Origin: a virus
Taxonomy: Duplodnaviria; Heunggongvirae; Uroviricota; Caudoviricetes
DNA: 54,826 nucleotides
Direction: 5' to 3' (one strand)
Virus record (IMG/VR): IMGVR_UViG_2687453585_000002
A model generated the notes under the pieces. It was given only the letters and a program-made list of their open reading frames with translations, did no database searches and was not told where the DNA came from. The translations under genes and the position numbers were made by a program. Numbering within the stretch: position 1 is the first letter of the stretch; every line of letters begins with the position of its first letter. Below are positions 1,422 to 24,545 of this stretch, in pieces.

Positions 1422-3893
1422 TTAAAAATCAGCCTGATTCGGGATCAGTTTTTGCCAGATAACTGAAACGTATTTTGCCTGGTAACGGGCGTCATCAAGT
1501 GCATTATGGCGCTCACCTTCGAATGGAATAGCCGTTCTGGCATCGAAGTCTATGGCTTTCCCCAGCTCAACGATTGTGCGTACATCGCGATCGTTGTAGT
1601 AACGCCATGGGCAGGGGATCCCCTGCCGTTCGTATGAACGGCGCAAAATCGTGTTTTCGAAGTTGGCTCCATTTCCCCAGACCTGAACAAAAAATTCACC
1701 GGAGTTTTCGTCGATAAATTCCCGCAATTGTAACAGTGCATCATCTAACGGGATTTCATCGGTCATAATGGCAGACTGCGCTTCACGTGATTGCTTCAGC
1801 CACCTTTTAATGACGTCACGATCAATGACTCCGCCAGCAGTTTCCAGATCGATAGTCTTACTAAATTCCGGTCCCATATCTCCGGTTTGCGGATCGAAAA
1901 ATATTGCATCTATTGAGATAATCGGGGCATCAGGATTTTTTCCCATGGTTTCAAGGTCAATCATCAGATGGTGCCACAACCTGCTGGTGGATGTGCTTTT
2001 ACGATGACTGTTCACCTTAATTAAGGGATTTGCTGTCTCGCCTATTTCATTATTGTCATTGGCATGTTGATCGCCTTCGGTGCACTCCTTGTTCGGGAGT
2101 CCGGCATTTTCTATTTCCTCTGGATCTTTTTCCCGGGCTTCATCCTGGCTTTCTTCGTTGAATGTCTCCTGGTAGGTTGCGTCACCCATCACTGCGCCAC
2201 AATCAGGGCAGTTACCACCACCAGTCTGATTGCATGCGGTACAAACTTTTTCCTCTTCCTGTTGCACGACTGGTTCAGGTTGTTTCGTTTCTGGCTCGTT
2301 TTGTAACGCATTTTGGCTGTTTTGTTCCGCTTTTTGGTCGTACTGTTCCGTTTCTGACTGGTTCTGGTGCACAGAATCGCGGGTTTCAATCCCCTTCACC
2401 CATTTCGGATCATTCGGGTCGCTAATCCCTTCAACAAATTCACCACGTGATGCAGCGAGCAACTTATTAGCGTCAGGCTGGCTGATACTGGCTGCCTGCA
2501 TAATTTTGTTTACTTCGTCAGCGGTAACTTTTACCAGGTCTGGTTGTGCGGTCGTGTCAGATGCATCAGTATTTTGTTGTGAACCTGTGTATGTGCCGTT
2601 TTTGCGGGCAAAATATTCTTCTTTCGTGATTTCAGTTGCCCCGGCAGCCAGCGCCTTATCCAGACCAGAAAGTTTGTTTGCGCGACCGTATTTTTCGCCA
2701 TCCTTGTCGGTGAAGAGGAAGTAGAACGGCCCCTCACGCTCTACAGATGGTTCGACTTCCACTTTGCATTCGGTTTTTTCGTTGTCCGGAATTGCCGTTT
2801 CCACTGCATCAGTTTCTGGTACTGGCGACGAGAGAGTATCAGTTGCGCTCTGATTTCTTCCTTCATCTTCAAACACGCCCTTTGTAGTCAGGTATTCAGT
2901 AATGTATTTGTTCAGTGCCACAGGGTCTTTGTGAATGTCGATCGGACGTTCACGGACAAGGCCAAAAATAGTCTGGCGGTCGTAGCGAAGGGCATCAGGC
3001 TGTTTGCGCATTGATGCCGAGATACGCTTCCAGTCTTCGCGGTCGTTGTCGATAACTTCATTTTTTGCCCAGCGATGGATGCTGCCGTCAATGTTTCCGG
3101 CATCCACATCACCAGGCCAGAGAGCGTAGGCCAGTTCGTCATCCAGTGTTTTCCATGTCTGCTTGTATTCGCGATGAATGGCAGCAATGACCGGGCTGAT
3201 TTTTCCTGTTGAATTTTCAGTGTACTGTTGATTGGCTCTGGCGCGGGCGAGATCAACAACAGACGTGTATTTTCCGGTTTCCTTGCGTTCACCTTCACGA
3301 CGTTTTTTCCAGATGCGCATCTCTGCCTGAATTTCGGGCCATTTGGCACCAGGCTTACATTTATGCTTAACCCACCCGATGGCATGCAGCTTAAGCTCCG
3401 GATACATGGCGTTAACTTCTGGCATTTTCATCAACGCTTCAACGATATGTCCGTCGAATGTTGCCATGTCTTCCTGCAACAATTCCTGTGCGCTAATAAC
3501 CATATCAACGGTGATGTTTTCACATGTGTCGAACTTAACCATGACAGCGTTCTGTACTTCAGGGGCCAGCTTGTCAAAAGTGACGTTCATCGGATCGGAT
3601 TCAGTCTCAACCGGGACAAAGGAAGCAGACTCCTCATCCCAGCGGTTTTCCTGCATATATTCAGCATCCCAGGAATCGAGGGCAGGGCGGGGTATACCGG
3701 GTTTATCCTCGCAGACAAGAAATTTATAAGCGCAGTCCTGAGCAGCCGGATAATGTTCCAGGAATTGCCAGTGAAATTTTGCGCGGGCGCGACGTTCATC
3801 ACCGGCTTCAATGGCAGTGGCTACAGCGACGGCACCTTCTTCCTTTATTGCCTGTTCGTCCGGAATGGCGGCGCAAATAAAGACTTTACTCAT
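1422..3893 (-). CDS. putative exonuclease, C-terminal DnaQ-like (DEDDh) 3'-5' exonuclease domain with large N-terminal domain
   Basis: 823-aa ORF; C-terminal 'LMIDLETMG...' and '...HNALDDARYQAKY' motifs resemble DEDDh exonucleases; internal CxxC...CxxC zinc-ribbon-like motif (CTACNQTGGGNCPDCG). Confidence 0.6.
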   Translation of the reverse strand: MSKVFICAAIPDEQAIKEEGAVAVATAIEAGDERRARAKFHWQFLEHYPAAQDCAYKFLVCEDKPGIPRPALDSWDAEYMQENRWDEESASFVPVETESDPMNVTFDKLAPEVQNAVMVKFDTCENITVDMVISAQELLQEDMATFDGHIVEALMKMPEVNAMYPELKLHAIGWVKHKCKPGAKWPEIQAEMRIWKKRREGERKETGKYTSVVDLARARANQQYTENSTGKISPVIAAIHREYKQTWKTLDDELAYALWPGDVDAGNIDGSIHRWAKNEVIDNDREDWKRISASMRKQPDALRYDRQTIFGLVRERPIDIHKDPVALNKYITEYLTTKGVFEDEGRNQSATDTLSSPVPETDAVETAIPDNEKTECKVEVEPSVEREGPFYFLFTDKDGEKYGRANKLSGLDKALAAGATEITKEEYFARKNGTYTGSQQNTDASDTTAQPDLVKVTADEVNKIMQAASISQPDANKLLAASRGEFVEGISDPNDPKWVKGIETRDSVHQNQSETEQYDQKAEQNSQNALQNEPETKQPEPVVQQEEEKVCTACNQTGGGNCPDCGAVMGDATYQETFNEESQDEAREKDPEEIENAGLPNKECTEGDQHANDNNEIGETANPLIKVNSHRKSTSTSRLWHHLMIDLETMGKNPDAPIISIDAIFFDPQTGDMGPEFSKTIDLETAGGVIDRDVIKRWLKQSREAQSAIMTDEIPLDDALLQLREFIDENSGEFFVQVWGNGANFENTILRRSYERQGIPCPWRYYNDRDVRTIVELGKAIDFDARTAIPFEGERHNALDDARYQAKYVSVIWQKLIPNQADF

Positions 3894-4531: not shown

Positions 4532-4589
4532 AAAAAGGGCGGCAGAGCAGTCACGGAGTAAAACTGATACCGCCAAACGTCACCAGAAA
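4532..4589 (-). ncRNA. dicF: DicF small regulatory RNA (ftsZ-targeting)
   Basis: minus-strand sequence TTTCTGGTGACGTTTGGCGGTATCAGTTTTACTCCGTGACTGCTCUGCCGCCCTTTTT matches DicF as recalled; ends in GC hairpin plus T-run; located between ydfC-like and dicB as in Qin. Confidence 0.75.
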
Positions 4590-10948: not shown

Positions 10949-11185
10949 TTTTATGGATCACCTTTCTGATTGATTTCATATTGGCGAGGTGACGTGAGTT
11001 AAGTAGAATGGCTGCGGGTGCTTGAGGCTATCTGTCTCAGGCATGAACACTGAAAGGCAGATAGAGAAAAGCCCCAGTTAACATTTCGCGTCCTGCAAGA
11101 CGCTTAACATTAATCTGAGGCCCAATCTATGTCTCACAAATGTAGGTTAGCCTCTTACGTGCCGAAAGGCAAGGGGAAGCAGGCT

Positions 11186-11341
11186 ATGAAGCAGCAAAAG
11201 GCGATGTTAATCGCCCTGATCGTCATCTGTTTAACCGTCATAGTGACGGCACTGGTAACGAGGAAAGACCTCTGCGAGGTACGACTCCGAACCGGCCAGA
11301 CGGAGGTCGCTGTCTTCACAGCTTACGAACCTGAGGAGTAA
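11186..11341 (+). CDS. hok: Hok/Gef-family type I toxin (HokD/RelF-like)
   Basis: 51-aa product MKQQKAMLIALIVICLTVIVTALVTRKDLCEVRLRTGQTEVAVFTAYEPEE matches HokD nearly exactly as recalled; single TM helix. Confidence 0.85.
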   Translation: MKQQKAMLIALIVICLTVIVTALVTRKDLCEVRLRTGQTEVAVFTAYEPEE

Positions 11342-15711: not shown

Positions 15712-15787
15712 GGCCCTTTAGCTCAGTGGTGAGAGCGAGCGACTCATAATCGCCAGGTCGCTGGTTCAAATCCAGCAAGGGCCACCA
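15712..15787 (+). tRNA. tRNA with CAU anticodon (Ile2/Met type)
   Basis: acceptor stem GGCCCTT/AAGGGCC, GTTCAAATCC T-loop, anticodon loop CTCATAA, 3' CCA. Confidence 0.8.
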
Positions 15788-15887
15788 TCACAAACCGCCA
15801 TTAGCTTATCAGGAAGAGCAGACGACACGATAACAGGGTTGTTGGTGCGGGGGCGGGTCCCCGATGGCGGTCCATTATCGGTATTCA

Positions 15888-15964
15888 GCGTTGTTAGCTC
15901 AGCCGGACAGAGCAATTGCCTTCTAAGCAATCGGTCACTGGTTCGAATCCAGTACAGCGCGCCA
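15888..15964 (+). tRNA. tRNA-Arg (UCU)
   Basis: acceptor stem GCGTTGT/ACAGCGC, T-loop GGTTCGAATCC, anticodon loop CTTCTAA, 3' GCCA. Confidence 0.8.
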
Positions 15965-16428: not shown

Positions 16429-16875
16429 ATACATATCTGGATTATCACCGGTTACGGTAAAAAGTGATTGCTTACTGTTTTTGTGAATGGCATTGCTGCA
16501 GCCGGATAATGTCAGTGCTGGCTGACGGTGTGCTGGTGGCGGGTGTGGTGGTTGTTGCTTTCCCGTTGCTGAAAAAGAAAACGCCAGACTGTTAGCCGGG
16601 TATCAGTTAGCGGGAGAAATTTTTAAATACTTCACAATTCAGGCGGTTGATTGTTGTCTGGTTTGCGGGGAGTTTGTTAAAAGAAACTGGCATGGTGAAT
16701 CCCCCTGTGCGGAGGGGCAATCAGCGAGTAGGTATATGGGATAATCGCGGATTCAGGTGCTGGTACTGAATTCACCGGGAGGCACCCGGCACCATGCAAT
16801 GGCACATAGCGCCACTCTCCAGCCCCTCTCCGGAGGGGCTGTTTATATTGATTTTGTCAGATGTGAGTAAACTCC

Positions 16876-17471: not shown

Positions 17472-19325
17472 ATGGCATTTAAACACTATGATGTTGTCAG
17501 GGCGGCGTCGCCGTCAGATCTTGCGGAAAAGCTGACACATAAACTGAAAGAGGGCTGGCAGCCGTTTGGTAGTCCGGTGGCCATAACCCCTTATACCCTG
17601 ATGCAGGCGATTGCAGCAGAAGGTGATGTGGTCGTCAGTGGTGCAACTGAGCCGGAGTGGTACTACGTCATCGTACTGGCCGGGCAATCCAATGCCATGG
17701 CTTACGGTGAAGGGCTTCCGCTTCCGGATTCATACGATGCGCCCCATCCGCGCATTAAGCAACTGGCCCGTCGTAACACAGTGACTCCCGGTGGTGAAGT
17801 ATGCGTATTTAACGACATCATTCCTGCTGACCATTGTCTGCATGATGTTCAGGATATGAGTACGATTAACCATCCCCGGGCTGACCTGAGCAAAGGGCAG
17901 TACGGCTGTGTCGGACAGGGCTTACATATTGCCAAAAAACTGCTTCCGTATATCCCTAATAATGCGGGGATCCTGCTGGTACCATGCTGTCGTGGTGGTT
18001 CGGCATTCACCCAGGGCACGGAGGGGACATTCAGCGAGTCCACGGGGGCCAGTCAGGATTCGGCTCGCTGGGGAGTGGGTAAGCCGTTATATCAGGATCT
18101 GCTTTTCCGCACGAAGGCAGCATTGCAGAAAAACCCGAAAAACGTTTTGCTGGCGATATGCTGGATGCAGGGGGAATTCGATATGACGAATGCCAGTTAC
18201 GCCCAGCAGCCAGCAGCATTTCTTGCAATGGTACAGCAGTTCCGTGCTGACCTTGCCGGGCTGGCGGCGCAGTGTCACGGTGGAAGTCCGGCATCAGTCC
18301 CCTGGATTTGTGGCGACACGACATACGCGTGGAAACAAGAACACGGTACGCAATATGAAGTGGTATATGGTGCATATAAAGGTAAAGAATCCCAGCAGAT
18401 TTATTTTGTTCCCTTTATGACCGATGGTAGCGGAGTTAATACACCGACAAACAACCCGTCAGAAGATCCTGATATTGCCGGGTCTGGTTATTACGGTTCG
18501 GCATCCCGAACGAACAAAAACTGGGTATCATCAAATCGCCCGACGCATTTCAGCTCATGGGCGCGTCGTGGCATTATTCCCGATCGTATGGCAACTGCTA
18601 TTCTGAACGTAGCCGGTCGCACCTTAGCCTTCATTAGTGGTAAGGCACCGGAAATCAAACCCTCGCCCGGCGGCGACACGCCATCGGGGCCGTCTGAAGA
18701 TGCATCCGTACGCACAATCTCCCTGTTGCCGACAGCCGGAGATGCTGCTGCGCAGGGCTGGAGCATTAAGAATGGCGGAATTCAGTTGTCAGATGGTGTA
18801 TTTAAGATCACCAAGCAGAGCAATAAAGCCTGGTCCCTGACGCGCCCGGTGGATGACGCAGTCTCCCTGCTGACACGGGGTGGCAGACTGAGCTGTAAGT
18901 TTCGACTGTCAGGCGCACTGACCAACAATCAGTTCGGTCTGGGAATTTATCTGTATACCGATGTAGCGTTACCTGACGTCGTGGCGATGACCGGGACTGG
19001 TAACCCGTTCCTGATGTCGTTCTTCACCCAGACCACAGACGGCAAACTGAATCTGATGCATCACAAGAAAGCAGGAAACACAAAGTTGGGCGAGTTCGGG
19101 AATTACAGTAACGACTGGCAGACGCTGGAGCTGGTGTTCACCGCCGGCAGTGCCACGGTTACTCCGAAACTGAATGGAGTGGCTGGCCCGGCATTCCAGG
19201 TCATAAAAGACAGTCTGACACTGGGGCTGAATGCGCTGACGCTGACGGATATTACCAAAAATGCAACGTATGGCGTTGAGATAGAAAGTCTGGTGCTGGA
19301 GATAAATGCACCGGCATCATCATAA
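17472..19325 (+). CDS. NanS-p-like sialate O-acetylesterase family protein
   Basis: GQSN motif (VIVLAGQSNAMAYGEG) typical of SASA-type esterases; ~620 aa; sits between Q/tRNAs and lysis genes as in Stx phages; start at ATG 17472 preferred over 17457. Confidence 0.7.
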   Translation: MAFKHYDVVRAASPSDLAEKLTHKLKEGWQPFGSPVAITPYTLMQAIAAEGDVVVSGATEPEWYYVIVLAGQSNAMAYGEGLPLPDSYDAPHPRIKQLARRNTVTPGGEVCVFNDIIPADHCLHDVQDMSTINHPRADLSKGQYGCVGQGLHIAKKLLPYIPNNAGILLVPCCRGGSAFTQGTEGTFSESTGASQDSARWGVGKPLYQDLLFRTKAALQKNPKNVLLAICWMQGEFDMTNASYAQQPAAFLAMVQQFRADLAGLAAQCHGGSPASVPWICGDTTYAWKQEHGTQYEVVYGAYKGKESQQIYFVPFMTDGSGVNTPTNNPSEDPDIAGSGYYGSASRTNKNWVSSNRPTHFSSWARRGIIPDRMATAILNVAGRTLAFISGKAPEIKPSPGGDTPSGPSEDASVRTISLLPTAGDAAAQGWSIKNGGIQLSDGVFKITKQSNKAWSLTRPVDDAVSLLTRGGRLSCKFRLSGALTNNQFGLGIYLYTDVALPDVVAMTGTGNPFLMSFFTQTTDGKLNLMHHKKAGNTKLGEFGNYSNDWQTLELVFTAGSATVTPKLNGVAGPAFQVIKDSLTLGLNALTLTDITKNATYGVEIESLVLEINAPASS

Positions 19326-19475
19326 AAAGTGAGCCAGTCAAATGGAAGGTATCGTTAAACTCACCGGTAGTGTCAGTGGGTCGTCTGAGATGCCTGCATG
19401 AGTTATCAGAGCCATCAGTACTTAACTGGTGGCTTTTTTTATTGTTGTCAGCTTCCGGATAACGGGAGACGGGGT

Positions 19476-19691
19476 ATGTACCAGATGGAAAAAATCACAA
19501 CAGGTGTGTCATACACCACGTCAGCGGTGGGAACGGGCTACTGGTTCCTGCAGTTGCTGGACAGGGTTTCCCCGTCTCAGTGGGCGGCAATAGGCGTGCT
19601 GGGGAGTCTGCTGTTTGGGCTGCTGACATATCTGACTAACCTGTATTTCAAAATCAGAGAGGACCGTCGTAAGGCGGCACGGGGAGAGTAA
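19476..19691 (+). CDS. pinholin, phage 21 S-like (class II holin)
   Basis: 71 aa, dual-start MYQM, two TM segments, C-terminus [22 protein letters not shown] matching S21 as recalled. Confidence 0.85.
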
Positions 19692-19695
19692 TTCA

Positions 19696-20040
19696 ATGAC
19701 TCAAAACTATGAACTGATTGTGAAAGGGATCCGCAATTTTGAGAATAAAGTTACGGTAACTTTAGCGTTACGGGACAAAAAACGCTTTGACGGTGAAATT
19801 TTTGACCTGGACATCTCGCTGGACCGTGTTGAAGGTGCCGCGCTGGAGTTTTATGAGGCAGCAGCCAGAAGGAGCATCAGACAGGTCTTCCTGGATGTTG
19901 CTGCCGGGTTATGTGAAGGGGATGAGCAGTCGCCGGAAAAGCGCCCCGTAATTTTAGAGGCGCAGGATGTGTTGATAACCTACAGAGGAAAACTACCGGG
20001 AATAATTACGGGTTCTCTGAAGAGTCCGCCGAAATGGTAA
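19696..20040 (+). CDS. hypothetical protein (lysis-cassette insert)
   Basis: 114-aa ORF 4 nt after holin stop with GGAG RBS; no recognisable motif. Confidence 0.4.
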   Translation: MTQNYELIVKGIRNFENKVTVTLALRDKKRFDGEIFDLDISLDRVEGAALEFYEAAARRSIRQVFLDVAAGLCEGDEQSPEKRPVILEAQDVLITYRGKLPGIITGSLKSPPKW

Positions 20041-20278
20041 TTTTACCAGCATATTTTTCATCCAGTAATACAGCAAGCCGCCTGAAAGAGTCTTGTTGTT
20101 CCTGAGACCATTTGGGATTGCATGATTCAAACTGGATTGATGCCAGCGTTGATTGCATCTGTTCCCTTGGAATTGAGAATGCCAGATATGAGAAGGCGAC
20201 GGTAAGGGTATTCACGTCTTCCCGAAGCCTGGAAATGCTGTCGAGCAACTCCTGTAGAGAAATGGTGTTATTGTCCAT
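20006..20278 (-). CDS. hypothetical protein (lysis-cassette insert)
   Basis: 90-aa ORF, GAGGA RBS; convergent with and overlapping previous ORF by 35 nt; abuts IS left end. Confidence 0.4.
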   Translation of the reverse strand: MDNNTISLQELLDSISRLREDVNTLTVAFSYLAFSIPREQMQSTLASIQFESCNPKWSQEQQDSFRRLAVLLDEKYAGKITISADSSENP

Positions 20279-20343
20279 AAATAATCCTCATGATTGTATT
20301 GACCTGTTGAAGTGGTTTACTGAATTTGGCCACCTGAACAGAG

Positions 20344-21527
<1,184 letters not shown>

Positions 21528-21636
21528 CTCGGTGGCCAGTTTTTGTTGACCACTTCATGTTAGCAGCCTGAGGCAACAGGCTGGAACTGATAAACATATC
21601 CAGGGCTCAGAAACCGATAAATCCTGATAAATATCC

Positions 21637-22170
21637 ATGAACGCAAAAATCAGATACGGCCTGTCGGCTGCCGTTCTGGCGCTGATTGCCGCTGGTGCGC
21701 CTGCGCCTGACATTCTCGACCAGTTTCTGGATGAAAAGGAAGGTAACCACACCACGGCATACCGTGATGGCGCGGGTATCTGGACCATCTGCCGCGGTGC
21801 CATCCTGGTGGATGGCAAACCTGTCGTTCCGGGCATGAAGTTGTCGAAGGAAAAATGCGACCGGGTTAACGCCATTGAGCGTGATAAGGCGCTGGCATGG
21901 GTGGAGAAAAACATCAAAGTGCCATTGACCGAACCCCAGAAAGCGGGGATCGCGTCATTCTGTCCGTACAACATTGGTCCCGGTAAGTGTTTCCCGTCGA
22001 CGTTTTACAGACGAATTAATGCAGGTGATCGCAGGGGAGCATGCGAAGCGATTCGCTGGTGGATTAAGGACGGTGGCAGAGACTGCCGTATTCGCTCAAA
22101 TAACTGTTACGGTCAGGTATTCCGTCGTGACCAGGAGAGCGCGCTGGCGTGCTGGGGAATCGACAGATAA
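21637..22170 (+). CDS. SAR endolysin (lysozyme, GH24-like)
   Basis: 177 aa; N-terminal weakly hydrophobic signal-anchor-release segment LSAAVLALIAAGA; lysozyme-like core; pairs with pinholin. Confidence 0.8.
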   Translation: MNAKIRYGLSAAVLALIAAGAPAPDILDQFLDEKEGNHTTAYRDGAGIWTICRGAILVDGKPVVPGMKLSKEKCDRVNAIERDKALAWVEKNIKVPLTEPQKAGIASFCPYNIGPGKCFPSTFYRRINAGDRRGACEAIRWWIKDGGRDCRIRSNNCYGQVFRRDQESALACWGIDR

Positions 22171-22263
22171 GCAGAATATTTTGCTGAAAAATGAGGTTGG
22201 CCAACGCGGGCGGATAACACGAAGTCCTGTGAACTGGCAAAACCTAAGTGAATAAAAGTAAAA

Positions 22264-22299
22264 ACCCCGTTTGTTGGCAGCAAGCGGGGTTTTGTTTTT
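22264..22299 (+). terminator. terminator-like hairpin after endolysin
   Basis: CCCCG...CGGGG stem followed by TTTTGTTTTT. Confidence 0.45.
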
Positions 22300-22364
22300 A
22301 TGGCAGTAAGCTATGGGAGGCTGCCTTGATTGATTTTAGCAAACTGATTAGGGAGTTGCGACTC

Positions 22365-22460
22365 ATGATTAGTCAATTACCAAACTGGAAATTTTTGCTG
22401 GTCTGGAGCATCCCTTTTTTATGGGTAGTATCCCAGTTAATTGTGGCAATTAAGGGGTAG
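22365..22460 (+). CDS. small hydrophobic peptide (31 aa)
   Basis: MISQLPNWKFLLVWSIPFLWVVSQLIVAIKG; single predicted TM; found by manual translation. Confidence 0.3.
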   Translation: MISQLPNWKFLLVWSIPFLWVVSQLIVAIKG

Positions 22461-22462
22461 CT

Positions 22463-22594
22463 ATGTCAGACAAACTCATAACGCCGGCAAAGGTCCTGTG
22501 TGTGATTGTCGGTATTTCATTTTCACTAATGCTGGTTGCTCTTTTTCTGTCCCTCGCCTGGGTGATGTTGTCTTCGTCGGGGCTGCTGGGGTGA
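22463..22594 (+). CDS. small hydrophobic peptide (43 aa)
   Basis: MSDKLITPAKVLCVIVGISFSLMLVALFLSLAWVMLSSSGLLG; AAGGGG RBS 6 nt upstream. Confidence 0.4.
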   Translation: MSDKLITPAKVLCVIVGISFSLMLVALFLSLAWVMLSSSGLLG

Positions 22595-22713
22595 CAGTGA
22601 CTGATGACATCAGCAGAGCGCTGGCTTTTGCTATTAAGTGGGTGGCTGTTGGTATTGCTGTGTCTCCGATGCTGTATGGGCTGGCAAAACTGGTCATTGC
22701 GCTGAAATCGTGA
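22591..22713 (+). CDS. small hydrophobic peptide (~40 aa)
   Basis: GTG start overlapping previous stop (GTGA coupling); ...ISRALAFAIKWVAVGIAVSPMLYGLAKLVIALKS. Confidence 0.3.
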   Translation: MTVTDDISRALAFAIKWVAVGIAVSPMLYGLAKLVIALKS

Positions 22714-22724
22714 ACTTTAAAAAG

Positions 22725-22811
22725 ATGAGTGCTGAACTTATTCGGGCAATGGCATTTGCCATTCGTATTGTGGCCATTGCTGTTCTGGTCTGGGCAATCC
22801 GTTGGTGGTGA
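22725..22811 (+). CDS. small hydrophobic peptide (28 aa), paralog of preceding peptide
   Basis: [28 protein letters not shown]; similar to RALAFAIKWVAVGIAV of neighbour; stop 1 nt before Rz start. Confidence 0.3.
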
Positions 22812-22812
22812 T

Positions 22813-23307
22813 ATGAACCGTGTTCTGTGTGTGGTGATTATTGTCATGCTGGTAGCCTGTGGTGTGCTTAGTCTGGGGCTGAATCATTACCGCGATAACG
22901 CCATCACCTACAAAGCGCAGCGCGATAAAAAAGTCAGTGAGCTGAAACTGGCGAATGCCACTATTACTGACATGCAGCAGCGCCAGCGAGATGTCGCTGC
23001 GCTTGATGCCAGATACACGAAGGAATTAGCCGATGCGAGAGCTGAAAATGAAACTCTGCGCGCTGATGTTGCCGCTGGTCGTAAGCGCCTGCGGGTCAAC
23101 GCCACCTGCCCCGGTACCGTGCGTGAAGCCACCGGCACCTCCAGCGTGGATAATGCAACCGGCCCCCGACTGGCAGACACCGCTGAACGGGATTATTTCA
23201 TCCTCAGAGAACGGTTGATGACAATGCAGAAGCAGCTGGAAGGGGCGCAGGAATATATCCGCACTCAGTGCACTAAGCTGGCTTTTTATTATCCGGAGGA
23301 TACATGA
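22813..23307 (+). CDS. Rz: i-spanin Rz
   Basis: 164 aa from ATG 22813; N-terminal TM, coiled-coil rest; embedded Rz1 in +1 frame. Confidence 0.8.
23048..23218 (+). CDS. Rz1: o-spanin Rz1 (lipoprotein) embedded in Rz
   Basis: lipobox LVVSAC, proline-rich mature region; wholly within Rz in alternate frame. Confidence 0.75.
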
Positions 23308-23519
23308 AGAAATTACGGGTAACCGTAGAACCTTTTCAGGGAACAATTCCGTTCCGTATTTTGCAGCGTGGTCGTGTTCTTGTTGAAGGTTCGTTCAGTG
23401 GTAAATGTACGCAATTACACTCCCGGACCTTTCAGGTGAATGCCACGAATGAAGAGCTAACCGTGGAGTGTACGATGAATGCCGCTAAATGCCGCATGGT
23501 ATTACAGCCAGTGTGTTGA
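23304..23519 (+). CDS. hypothetical small protein
   Basis: 71-aa ORF; ATG overlaps Rz stop; GGAGGA RBS. Confidence 0.4.
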
Positions 23520-23717
23520 GCGACCTTATTATCCATGCGCGGTATTGTCGCCGTATTCCTGCATTAACAGAGACCGCAGCCCGACAGGGAGACTCCTCTG
23601 CGCGAGTGTGCGGGGATAATCAAAAACGATACACACCGGGGTTTACCGCGTTAACGGAGCGCGGCGTTGTCCCCTCATAGTCGCCTGTCCGGTGCGATGG
23701 TGGAAGAAACCGAACGT

Positions 23718-23918
23718 TCATTTCTCGTTATTTGTCATGCTGGCCGGGCGCAGATGCGTTGCATCTGTTGCCAGCCTTCTCCTGCAGGCTTCAATAACCC
23801 ACGCTGAAAAGTTACCGGACCCTTTATGCTCAAGGGCGATGTTGATCTGTTCAATTATGTGATTGGGGAAACGGATATTGCGGGTTGTGGTTCTGCGGGT
23901 CCGGTTTTTCGATGACAT
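23718..23918 (-). CDS. ribbon-helix-helix-like small protein (YlcI/DUF3950-like)
   Basis: 66 aa from internal ATG with AAGGA RBS; IRFPNHIIEQINIALEHKGSGNFSAWVIEACRRRL resembles RHH fold pattern. Confidence 0.45.
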   Translation of the reverse strand: MSSKNRTRRTTTRNIRFPNHIIEQINIALEHKGSGNFSAWVIEACRRRLATDATHLRPASMTNNEK

Positions 23919-23959
23919 ATTTATTTCCTTTACTGATTGCCATATGACGGGGATTTTAC

Positions 23960-24325
23960 ATGGCTGAGCTTCGTACACTCCAGAGCAGAATCAAAACACT
24001 GAATACCCGACGGGTGAATATTCTGAAGGGGGAGCAGCGTCGTGTCAGTGGCAGTGCACGTGTTTCCCTCAAGCGTCATATCTGGCTGAGGGACGCCGGG
24101 CAGTGCTGTATCTGTGGTCGTGTGGTTGACCTCTGTGACAGTGAACTCGATCACCGAATTGCACTTCAGTTCGGTGGTGGTAATGAGGAGACGAATCTTT
24201 GGACGCTCTGTGCCGAATGCCATCGACAAAAGTCTGCTCGTGAAGCGGCGAGTGGTATGCCGGACCCGACGCTGCCGGAGGTGTCCGGAGGTAGTGGCAG
24301 AGAGGACGACATCATCGGACTGTAA
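23960..24325 (+). CDS. HNH endonuclease (packaging-associated)
   Basis: CxxC...DH...N...CxxCH motif (CCICG...DHRIAL...NLWTLCAECH); directly upstream of cos-like region and terminase. Confidence 0.8.
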   Translation: MAELRTLQSRIKTLNTRRVNILKGEQRRVSGSARVSLKRHIWLRDAGQCCICGRVVDLCDSELDHRIALQFGGGNEETNLWTLCAECHRQKSAREAASGMPDPTLPEVSGGSGREDDIIGL

Positions 24326-24416
24326 CCCAACCCGGGGGGGGTATCATCCGGCGTAAAAAACGATCGCTTTGGACACCGCGCCCCCTCTCACGCAGAGAAA
24401 AAATTCCCGTTTCAGG

Positions 24417-24545
24417 GCAGTTAACATGTTAACTGGCTGCCCGGGCATTTTTGCGGTTTTTATCTTTATTATTCAGTTTGTTGTGCGGAAAAAATGTTAA
24501 CAGGCTTTTTCAGCAAATGTTAACCAGGCAGCAGTTAACATTTGC
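24417..24545. promoter_or_regulatory. putative cos / terminase-binding region with GTTAAC-containing repeats
   Basis: four copies of (A)TGTTAAC including palindrome GTTAACATGTTAAC in the non-coding gap between HNH and terminase small subunit. Confidence 0.4.

What the first reader, a model, noticed from the sequence alone, without database searches (positions are those of the whole stretch)
22301..22812. Cluster of four small hydrophobic ORFs between endolysin and spanin genes
After a terminator-like hairpin following R, four short ORFs (31, 43, ~40 and 28 aa) each encode a single predicted transmembrane helix. Two are paralogous (RALAFAIKWVAVGIAV versus [16 protein letters not shown]), and stops and starts are coupled (GTGA overlap; stop 1 nt before Rz ATG). 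Such peptides could be antiholin-like lysis regulators, superinfection-exclusion proteins or type I-toxin-like membrane peptides. They are below the size cut-off of most annotation pipelines.
Basis: seen in the sequence. Interest (0 to 1): 0.5.

Follow-up and report, generated by a model that had tools for sequence, protein, structure and literature searches.

The report
Small membrane-peptide genes in lysis cassette
Four tiny genes for membrane-spanning peptides sit between the cell-wall enzyme gene and the outer-membrane-disruption gene of an E. coli prophage; they are real, conserved and already catalogued as "hypothetical", but their function has never been tested.

Summary
Four same-strand ORFs lie between SAR-endolysin R and spanin Rz/Rz1: o1 22365-22460 (31 aa), o2 22463-22594 (43 aa), o3 22591-22713 (40 aa, GTG) and o4 22725-22811 (28 aa). 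A strong terminator hairpin (22261-22293) precedes them, and their stops and starts are coupled.

All four look like real genes:
- Each shows purifying selection in its own frame (dN/dS 0.10-0.37) and not in control frames.
- Each matches a PHROG family of unknown function. o3 and o4 are paralogues.
- The o2 orthologue in O157 Sakai (ECs_1966 / XECs191) has published ribosome-profiling support.
- PGAP already annotates three of the four.

The ORFs behave as shuffled modules. Different lambdoid and Stx prophages carry different combinations, nearly always just upstream of Rz/Rz1 or of a small lipoprotein. The upstream lysis genes vary across four endolysin and at least four holin families.

No promoter of their own was found, so they are most likely late-operon inner-membrane microproteins that tune lysis. 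That function is inferred only. A lysogen-expressed "moron" role is nearly as plausible. A type I toxin reading is not supported.

Interest is moderate: an uncharacterised but catalogued family, present in most Stx phages.

The parts
19476..19691 (+). S21-type class II (pin)holin, 71 aa, MYQM dual start
   Evidence: Pfam PF04971, E 9e-33; ORF list.
20309..21557 (+). IS3-family insertion sequence between the holin/DUF1327 genes and R. Context only, not part of the feature.
   Evidence: The window is 100% identical to strain 4/1-1 on both sides of this 1249-bp insert. Transposase ORFs are at 20344-20682 and 20709-21527.
21637..22170 (+). Endolysin R, 177 aa lysozyme. I read its weakly hydrophobic N-terminus as a SAR-type signal-anchor; this was not tested.
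   Evidence: Pfam PF00959, E 9e-24. N-terminal KD 1.74.
22261..22293 (+). Intrinsic-terminator hairpin plus T-run after R. It is the 3' part of a structured 130-nt segment (22171-22300).
   Evidence: 15-pair stem. Fold z = -3.84. Stem kept by compensatory changes in Salmonella and other E. coli versions.
22365..22460 (+). o1: 31-aa single-TM peptide (MISQLPNWKFLLVWSIPFLWVVSQLIVAIKG)
   Evidence: phrog_6632, E 6e-5. dN/dS 0.17 against the PhiR5_1 allele, control frames 0.8 and 2.3, binomial P 0.018. SD TAGGGAG. Always found immediately upstream of o2.
22463..22594 (+). o2: 43-aa single-TM peptide (MSDKLITPAKVLCVIVGISFSLMLVALFLSLAWVMLSSSGLLG)
   Evidence: phrog_4906, E 4.5e-21. PGAP WP_001280935.1. 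195 protein clusters, essentially all named E. coli or Shigella; almost all full-length alleles have a 43-residue core, with rare short indels. dN/dS 0.24-0.37 against 0.7-1.8 in control frames. Orthologue XECs191 = ECs_1966 has RIBOseq support.
22591..22713 (+). o3: 40-aa peptide. It is the conserved C-terminal core of a 48-60 aa family, here N-terminally truncated and coupled to the o2 stop (GTGA).
   Evidence: phrog_1115, E 6e-25. PGAP WP_042004856.1. dN/dS about 0.1 with dS above 1 against Salmonella copies. Variable sites by codon position 13/6/32. P 6e-6 to 1e-4.
22725..22811 (+). o4: 28-aa peptide (33 aa if started at GTG 22710), paralogue of o3 with an ...RWW C-terminus
   Evidence: phrog_4493, E 4e-6. 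PGAP WP_032140280.1. dN/dS 0.21-0.25 against L006 and against the independent short-form copy in L107, P 0.008-0.014.
22813..23307 (+). i-spanin Rz, with o-spanin Rz1 embedded at 23033-23218
   Evidence: Pfam PF03245, E 4e-51. The embedded 61-aa ORF carries a lipobox.

Best explanation
The four ORFs are genuine genes for very small inner-membrane proteins. They occupy a mosaic accessory slot inside the lysis cassette of lambdoid (including Shiga-toxin) prophages.

Shown here:
- They are protein-coding and under purifying selection.
- They belong to three catalogued families of unknown function: o1, o2, and o3/o4.
- They are tightly packed and start/stop-coupled with each other and with Rz.
- They lie downstream of a strong terminator, with no recognisable promoter of their own.

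Inferred:
- They are transcribed only, or mainly, as part of the Q-antiterminated late transcript, together with holin, endolysin and spanin.
- They are translated by SD-dependent initiation (o1, o2) and by coupling or re-initiation (o3, o4).
- They insert into the inner membrane shortly before lysis.
- There they act as dispensable modulators of the membrane step of lysis, through helix-helix contacts with the TM domains of the holin, the SAR endolysin or the i-spanin. This would adjust lysis timing or efficiency.

No experiment bears on the last step.
For: Coding:
- dN/dS is 0.10-0.37 in the annotated frames and 0.6-10 in control frames. Binomial P ranges from 6e-6 to 0.04.
- Almost all full-length o2 alleles keep a 43-residue core across 195 clusters.
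- All four match PHROG families.
- RIBOseq supports the o2 orthologue XECs191 / ECs_1966.

Late-operon membership:
- Same strand as the lysis genes.
- GTGA overlaps between ORFs and a stop 1 nt before the Rz ATG.
- In other phages the stops lie 1-10 nt before the Rz ATG, or overlap the antirepressor stop.
- A terminator lies upstream in the contexts scanned or read.
- In L005 the spacer between terminator and ORF is only 33 nt.
- The consensus scan found no plus-strand sigma-70 promoter.

Link to lysis:
- The o3/o4 family sits directly downstream of endolysins from four Pfam families: PF00959, GH19, GH108 and Peptidase_M15_4.
- The accompanying holins come from at least four families.
- The family lies directly upstream of Rz/Rz1, or of a 60-aa lipoprotein that occupies the Rz position.

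Precedents for small TM accessory lysis factors:
- LambdaSo Lcc6, a 65-aa TM protein required for pinholin/SAR lysis (bioRxiv 10.1101/2024.01.23.576932).
- Mu releasin, as cited in that preprint.
- P2 LysA, which also lies between endolysin and spanin genes (my own knowledge).
Against: - No functional data exist, and there is no homology to any holin, antiholin, releasin or spanin family.
- The slot is optional. K-12 Qin has rrrQ and rzpQ overlapping with nothing between them.
- One Stx1c phage has o3 frameshifted and o4 largely deleted.
- The o3 family also occurs after tail-fibre genes, far from lysis genes, in two Salmonella contexts. Both the post-lysis and post-tail regions are classic moron sites.
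- Association with many holin and endolysin types argues against a specific partner among them.
- RIBOseq signal for the o2 orthologue came from uninduced cultures. That could mean expression in lysogens.
- The promoter scan is a strict consensus scan and can miss weak or non-sigma-70 promoters.
Confidence: 0.4

Rival explanations
1. Moron-type lysogenic-conversion genes. The peptides are made in the lysogen and protect or modify the host membrane, for example by superinfection exclusion or by modulating a host membrane protein. They merely reside in a recombination-permissive slot of the late region.
For: - The modules are shuffled and optional.
- GC content is slightly lower than in R and Rz: 0.43-0.50 against 0.52-0.60.
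- The o3 family also occurs after tail-fibre genes at prophage ends, bracketed by terminators.
- The slot is shared with antirepressor cargo genes.
- The o2 orthologue shows RNA and ribosome footprints in uninduced Sakai cultures, in the lambda-like prophage Sp10.
- o2 alleles are highly diverse, as is common for exclusion or host-interaction genes.
Against: - No promoter was found between terminator and ORFs. The spacer is only 33 nt in L005.
- No terminator lies between the ORFs and Rz, so any such transcript would also express the spanins.
- There is no match to PADLOC defence models.
- The Sakai signal is low (ribosome RPKM 12.6) and could come from spontaneously induced cells.
Confidence: 0.3
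2. Partly debris. o1 and o2 are functional, but o3 and o4 in this particular arrangement are N-terminally truncated recombination remnants. They have lost their native start and leader, are not productively translated, and hitch-hike in a recently spread prophage.
For: - Full-length relatives are 48-60 aa (o3) and 37-57 aa (o4). They share an MK(N)G...AP N-terminus and a nucleotide-invariant leader that the window copies lack.
- o3 starts at GTG and o4 has no SD.
- L004 has a 1-bp deletion in o3 and a deletion of most of o4.
- Variation within this haplotype group is too low to show selection: 6 synonymous changes, 4 non-synonymous, 1 indel.
Against: - The conserved core of the family is exactly the 40 aa retained in o3.
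- The 28-aa short form of o4, with the same ATG, recurs in independent contexts (L103, L107, P0258). It shows dN/dS 0.25 against L107.
- GTGA start/stop overlaps are a standard coupling device.
- 74 of 75 full-length copies keep all frames intact.
Confidence: 0.15
3. Type I toxin-antitoxin-like membrane toxins controlled by antisense RNA.
For: The peptides are small and hydrophobic. One minus-strand promoter-like site lies at 22469-22440.
Against: - That single site is within chance expectation: 1 found against 2.1 expected.
- There is no Rfam match at gathering or E<=1 thresholds other than noise.
- There is no match to Hok, Ldr, Ibs or TisB type families in Pfam or NCBIfam.
- The ORFs are operon-packed and coupled to Rz rather than stand-alone loci.
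- A real hok/sok locus exists elsewhere in the window and is readily detected.
Confidence: 0.03
4. Chance ORFs in a T-rich non-coding spacer, or coding on the opposite strand (123-aa antisense ORF at 22476-22847).
For: Short ORFs are common by chance. A long antisense ORF does exist.
Against: - Shuffles: 0 of 2000 reach the observed count.
- Substitution patterns are frame-specific in three different plus-strand frames, which one antisense frame cannot mimic.
- The modules occur in other orders (L005), where the antisense ORF cannot exist.
- No pipeline annotates the antisense ORF.
Confidence: 0.02

Closest known systems
Lcc6 of Shewanella phage LambdaSo (bioRxiv 10.1101/2024.01.23.576932)
   Same: A very small (65 aa) single-TM phage protein in a lambda-like phage with a pinholin/SAR-endolysin/Rz-Rz1 system. 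It has no recognisable domain and acts at the inner-membrane (holin) step.
   Different: - Lcc6 is encoded near int/xis, not in the lysis cassette.
- Its TM is N-terminal, with a 43-aa cytoplasmic tail.
- It is essential for lysis, whereas the ORFs here are optional.
- Homology could not be tested because the Lcc6 sequence is not held.
Phage P2 LysA (putative antiholin; my own knowledge of Ziermann et al. 1994)
   Same: A non-essential membrane protein gene located between the endolysin gene (K) and the spanin genes (lysB/lysC), affecting lysis timing. This is the same gene position as o1-o4.
   Different: LysA is about 140 aa with several TM domains. No sequence relationship was detected: the four ORFs match no holin or lysis family in Pfam or PHROGs.
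Phage Mu releasin gp25 (DUF2730)
   Same: A small membrane protein accessory to a SAR endolysin.
   Different: No DUF2730 match. The o3 family also accompanies non-SAR endolysins (GH19, GH108, M15), so SAR release cannot be its general role.
Holin/antiholin pairs (lambda S105/S107, phage 21 S68/S71)
   Same: Small membrane proteins of the lysis cassette. The o3 TM shows a weak local resemblance to S21 TMD2 (KWVAVGIAVS against [10 protein letters not shown]). One database ORF is a holin-o3 chimera joined at that point.
   Different: The resemblance is not significant (hhalign probability 1.5%). There is no charged C-terminal tail and no holin-family match. The window already has its own dual-start S21 holin.
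Type I toxins (Hok, Ldr, Ibs, TisB)
   Same: Size and hydrophobicity.
   Different: No antisense RNA, no family match and no stand-alone locus architecture.
Lambdoid morons / exclusion proteins (lambda Bor and Lom, HK97 gp15, phi80 Cor; my own knowledge)
   Same: Optional cargo in the late region, of mosaic distribution. Some are small membrane proteins.
   Different: Those have their own promoters and are expressed in lysogens. No promoter was found here, and there is no sequence similarity.

Membership tests
PHROG families phrog_6632 (o1), phrog_4906 (o2), phrog_1115/4493/3246 (o3, o4) | Significant match to the family profile | tested here: met
   E values: o1 6e-5, o2 4.5e-21, o3 6.4e-25, o4 3.8e-6. 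All four families are labelled 'unknown function'.
Holin / antiholin | Match to a described holin family (Pfam Phage_holin_*, or PHROG lysis category) | tested here: not met
   No Pfam or NCBIfam hit at E<=1. PHROG hits are all to unknown-function families. The true holin of the window is PF04971 at 19476-19691.
Holin / antiholin | At least one TM domain plus a highly charged hydrophilic C-terminal tail | tested here: not met
   The TM segment is present. The C-termini are KG, SSSGLLG, LKS and RWW, so there is no charged tail.
Holin / antiholin | Timed lethal membrane permeabilisation, or inhibition of it | not testable with these tools
   Needs induction and expression experiments.
Type I toxin-antitoxin | Antisense or overlapping sRNA antitoxin with its own promoter | tested here: not met
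   No Rfam hit. One minus-strand promoter-like site against 2.1 expected by chance.
Type I toxin-antitoxin | Homology to a known toxin family (Hok/Gef, Ldr, Ibs, TisB, ShoB, Zor) | tested here: not met
   No Pfam or NCBIfam match. The sok RNA of a real hok/sok locus is detected elsewhere in the window, at 11016-11191.
Two-component spanin (Rz/Rz1) | i-spanin: N-terminal TM plus a periplasmic domain long enough to reach the outer membrane. o-spanin: lipobox. | tested here: not met
   The peptides have only 2-9 residues beyond the TM segment and no lipobox Cys. Rz/Rz1 are separate genes at 22813-23307.
Mu-type releasin (DUF2730) | DUF2730 domain | tested here: not met
   No Pfam hit.
Lcc6-like accessory lysis factor | Small TM protein required for holin-level membrane depolarisation | not testable with these tools
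   Known only from genetics in LambdaSo.
Anti-phage defence / superinfection exclusion | Match to a known defence or exclusion protein model | tested here: not met
   PADLOC: no family at E<=1 for any of the peptides.
Moron (lysogen-expressed cargo) | Own promoter upstream and terminator downstream; expression in the lysogen | tested here: inconclusive
   No consensus promoter was found. The terminator lies upstream, not downstream, in the lysis-cassette copies. One tail-fibre-context copy is bracketed by terminators. There is a low RIBOseq signal in uninduced Sakai.

The most novel reading that the evidence does not exclude
o2 is present in 276 phage records, most of them Stx-converting phages. 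Together with the o3/o4 family it may be a new class of accessory lysis-timing factors, acting as holin co-factors or anti-holins in the manner of LambdaSo Lcc6. They would help set when lambdoid and Stx prophages lyse the cell, and hence when Shiga toxin is released.

A more speculative extension concerns P27-like phages that lack Rz/Rz1. There, an o3/o4-family peptide plus the adjacent 60-aa lipoprotein (phrog_7528) might replace the spanin.
Probability: 0.2. Interest if true: 0.65.

Novelty: new member of a known kind. Interest (0 to 1): 0.38.

Why it matters
If these peptides tune lysis, the textbook holin-endolysin-spanin cassette of lambdoid phages has further, exchangeable membrane components.

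Reach of the families:
- The o2 family sits in most sequenced Stx phages, where lysis timing governs toxin release.
- 587 of 5426 complete E. coli genomes hold at least 80% of the 645-bp R-Rz segment queried, including ST131 strain EC958.

If instead they act in the lysogen, they are a widespread and fast-evolving set of prophage-encoded membrane microproteins. Either way they are easy to test by deletion and tagging in inducible lysogens.

As things stand, the finding is a well-supported but functionally uncharacterised gene set already present in databases.

Tried and rejected
1. The 123-aa antisense ORF (22476-22847) and the 90-aa extension of the o3 frame over o2 were both rejected. Substitution patterns favour the o2 frame. 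The modules also occur in other orders.
2. Similarity of the o3 TM to S21 holin TMD2, prompted by the chimeric ORF P0120, is not significant. hhalign probability is 1.5%.
3. Pfam, NCBIfam, PADLOC and PDB sequence searches gave no hits.
4. Rfam at gathering and E<=1 thresholds found nothing in 22100-22900.
5. The genome-contig scan for o2 found one 328-bp contig labelled Xanthomonas pisi, presumably contamination.
6. A profile search of the o3/o4 family against 1.84 billion representatives returned only 26 clusters, all small proteins of the same kind. It gave no link to a known family.
7. Literature searches for small ORFs between R and Rz, or in Stx lysis cassettes, found no functional study.
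8. The first related-loci run failed because the query was shorter than 48 aa.
9. No structure prediction was run. A single TM helix would not discriminate between the hypotheses.

Full report
**What is in the window**

The region belongs to a lambdoid prophage of E. coli. Over 19000-24500 it is 100% identical to strain 4/1-1, apart from a 1249-bp IS3-family insertion at 20309-21557. The lysis genes are:
- an S21-type class II holin at 19476-19691 (PF04971);
- a DUF1327 gene;
- the IS insertion;
- the 177-aa lysozyme R at 21637-22170 (PF00959), which I read as a SAR-type endolysin;
- Rz at 22813-23307 (PF03245), with Rz1 embedded at 23033-23218.

After the R stop comes a structured 130-nt segment (fold z = -3.84). 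It ends in a 15-pair hairpin plus T-run at 22261-22293. The four ORFs follow.

| ORF | Coordinates | Length | Start signal |
|---|---|---|---|
| o1 | 22365-22460 | 31 aa | ATG, SD TAGGGAG |
| o2 | 22463-22594 | 43 aa | ATG, SD AAGGGG |
| o3 | 22591-22713 | 40 aa | GTG, overlaps o2 stop as GTGA |
| o4 | 22725-22811 | 28 aa | ATG; alternative GTG 22710 overlaps o3 stop as GTGA |

The o4 stop lies one nucleotide before the Rz ATG. Each ORF has a 19-residue hydropathy window of 1.9-2.9. The segment has the T-rich skew expected of plus-strand membrane-protein coding. None of 2000 dinucleotide shuffles produced three or more such ORFs.

**Are they genes?**

- All four match PHROG families of unknown function: o1 phrog_6632, o2 phrog_4906, o3 phrog_1115/3246/4493, o4 phrog_4493/3246.
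- PGAP annotates o2, o3 and o4 as hypothetical proteins. The PhiR5_1 record annotates o1.
- Pfam, NCBIfam, PADLOC and PDB sequence searches give nothing.

Codon-level tests against diverged copies show purifying selection in each annotated frame and not in the control frames.

| ORF | Compared with | dN/dS | Control frames | Binomial P |
|---|---|---|---|---|
| o3 core | Salmonella copies (dS above 1) | about 0.10-0.13 | 0.6-10 | 6e-6 to 1e-4 |
| o2 | diverged E. coli alleles | 0.24-0.37 | 0.7-1.8 | 0.004-0.04 |
| o4 | L006, and the independent 28-aa copy in L107 | 0.21-0.25 | 0.7-1.15 (L006, L012) | 0.008-0.014 |
| o1 | PhiR5_1 allele | 0.17 | 0.8, 2.3 | 0.018 |

Variable sites in the o3 core fall 13/6/32 by codon position. 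The o2 family comprises 195 clusters at 90% identity. Essentially all named sources are E. coli or Shigella. Almost all full-length alleles keep a 43-residue core, with rare short indels.

Hücker et al. 2017 (PMC5597208) list XECs191 among translated novel small genes of O157:H7 Sakai. Its sequence is MMGWLMISDKLITLVKSLCVLVGISFLVMLVAIFFSTAWRVLTLSGLVG. Reported values are RNA RPKM 30, ribosome RPKM 12.6 and RCV 0.43 in the first of the three growth conditions tabulated. This is the o2 orthologue ECs_1966. It lies between the antirepressor and Rz of prophage Sp10.

**Architecture across phages**

The R-Rz gap is a mosaic slot.

| Example | Gene order |
|---|---|
| K-12 Qin | rrrQ and rzpQ overlap, nothing between |
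| Stx phages | R - terminator - antirepressor - o2 - Rz |
| L008 | R - KilAC antirepressor - o1 - o2 - Rz |
| PhiR5_2 and 60+ IMG/VR contigs | R - o3(long) - o2 - Rz |
| GER2, O157 prophages | R - o4(long) - Rz |
| The window | o1 - o2 - o3 - o4 |

At least 80% of the 645-bp R-Rz segment is present in 587 of 5426 complete E. coli genomes, including EC958.

Recombination joints fall inside ORF N-termini:
- o1 differs in its first seven codons between contexts.
- o3 and o4 here lack the MK(N)G..(D)AP N-terminus of their 48-60 aa and 37-57 aa relatives.
- The 40 residues kept in o3 are exactly the conserved core of the family.
- The 28-aa form of o4 recurs in independent contexts.

One Stx1c phage has o3 frameshifted and o4 mostly deleted, so these two are dispensable there.

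**Context of the o3/o4 family**

In E. coli and Salmonella the family follows endolysins of four Pfam families: PF00959, GH19, GH108+PG_binding_3 and Peptidase_M15_4. The accompanying holins come from at least four families. The family precedes Rz/Rz1. In P27-like phages that lack Rz/Rz1, it precedes a 60-aa lipoprotein (phrog_7528) that occupies the Rz position.

Two Salmonella contexts differ. There the family follows tail-fibre genes at the prophage end, once as a tandem paralogue pair.

A terminator precedes the small ORF in the contexts scanned or read. In L005 only 33 nt separate it from the start codon. No plus-strand consensus promoter was found.

**Mechanism**

Shown: the ORFs are coding, membrane-type and operon-packed. 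They are coupled to Rz, lie downstream of a terminator and have no detectable promoter.

Inferred: they are expressed from the Q-antiterminated late transcript and inserted into the inner membrane together with holin, endolysin and spanin.

From position and recurrent association with lysis cassettes, I favour an accessory, dispensable role in the membrane step of lysis (confidence about 0.4). Precedents are LambdaSo Lcc6, Mu releasin and P2 LysA.

The main rival is a moron or lysogen function such as superinfection exclusion (about 0.3). It is supported by the optional and mosaic distribution, the tail-fibre contexts, the high o2 allele diversity and the RIBOseq signal in uninduced cells.

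A further possibility is that o3 and o4 are inert truncated copies in this arrangement (about 0.15).

Type I toxin (about 0.03) and non-coding or antisense readings (about 0.02) are not supported.

**Novelty and verdict**

The ORFs are already in RefSeq and PHROGs as hypothetical or unknown-function entries, and one orthologue has translation evidence. I found no functional study. They are best described as new, uncharacterised members of the loose class of small accessory membrane proteins of phage lysis cassettes.

Interest is moderate at 0.38. The families are widespread, present in most Stx phages and cheaply testable. Nothing in the evidence is anomalous for lambdoid phage biology.

Noticed in passing
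window 20309-21557: A 1249-bp IS3-family element (orfA 20344-20682, orfB 20709-21527) is inserted 79 bp upstream of the R start. It separates the holin and DUF1327 genes from R. The flanks are 100% identical to an IS-free prophage in E. coli 4/1-1, with about 4 bp duplicated. It might be polar on R, the small ORFs and Rz.
   Followed up: partly
window 22171-22300: The 130 nt after the R stop fold unusually well (z = -3.84). The first 129 nt are 90-93% conserved in many E. coli genomes even where the downstream cargo differs (2068 genomes match some part of the 645-bp query). The terminator stem is maintained by compensatory changes in Salmonella versions. It could be a 3'UTR-derived sRNA or simply a conserved terminator. 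No Rfam match.
   Followed up: partly
L005 1640-1700; L095 about 3020-3075; L120, L114, L102 (not in window): In full-length o3-family genes, about 50 nt around the internal ATG (GAAGTATAAACGAATTCTGTTGAGGTTGACTATGAAAAACGGCCTTGAA) are nucleotide-identical between E. coli and Salmonella. The coding core just downstream has dS above 1. The upstream in-frame ATG is not conserved. This suggests the real start is the internal ATG (MKNG..., 48 aa) preceded by a constrained leader/RBS, or possibly a weak promoter (TATAAA).
   Followed up: partly
L120 3352-3534; L184 3182-3364; L114, L152, L166; L183 (phiP27) about 3100-3290: P27-like Stx2e/Stx2k phages and related prophages have two holins and a GH108 or M15 endolysin but no Rz/Rz1. 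In the Rz position lies a 60-aa lipoprotein (phrog_7528, MKRKHWTHR.PRTAAKWALVAILVPFFLVGC...). It is usually start/stop-coupled to an o3/o4-family ORF. It is unannotated in phiP27 itself. It might be part of an unrecognised outer-membrane disruption or exclusion module.
   Followed up: partly
protein P0120 (554-bp ENA contig): A 59-aa ORF fuses residues 1-36 of the S21-type holin to the C-terminal 23 residues of o3, at the shared W-(A/V)-A-(I/V)-G motif. It could be a deletion or recombination product, or an assembly artefact.
   Followed up: no
L100 2856-3168 and L101 165-528 (Salmonella): A tandem pair of o3-family paralogues with TGAcATG coupling lies after the tail-fibre and SASA-esterase genes and before a DUF1353 gene at a prophage end. 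It mirrors the o3-o4 tandem in the window but sits outside any lysis cassette.
   Followed up: partly
window 4537-4588 (-), 11016-11191 (+), 15712-15961 (+), 16661-16850 (+): Rfam gathering-level hits elsewhere in the prophage: DicF sRNA, sok antitoxin RNA (a hok/sok locus), two tRNAs and STnc100 sRNA.
   Followed up: no
window 23304-23519: A 71-aa ORF overlaps the Rz stop (ATGA) and matches phrog_2571 (unknown function). Homologues follow the phrog_7528 lipoprotein in P27-like cassettes, so it travels with the end of the lysis module.
   Followed up: no
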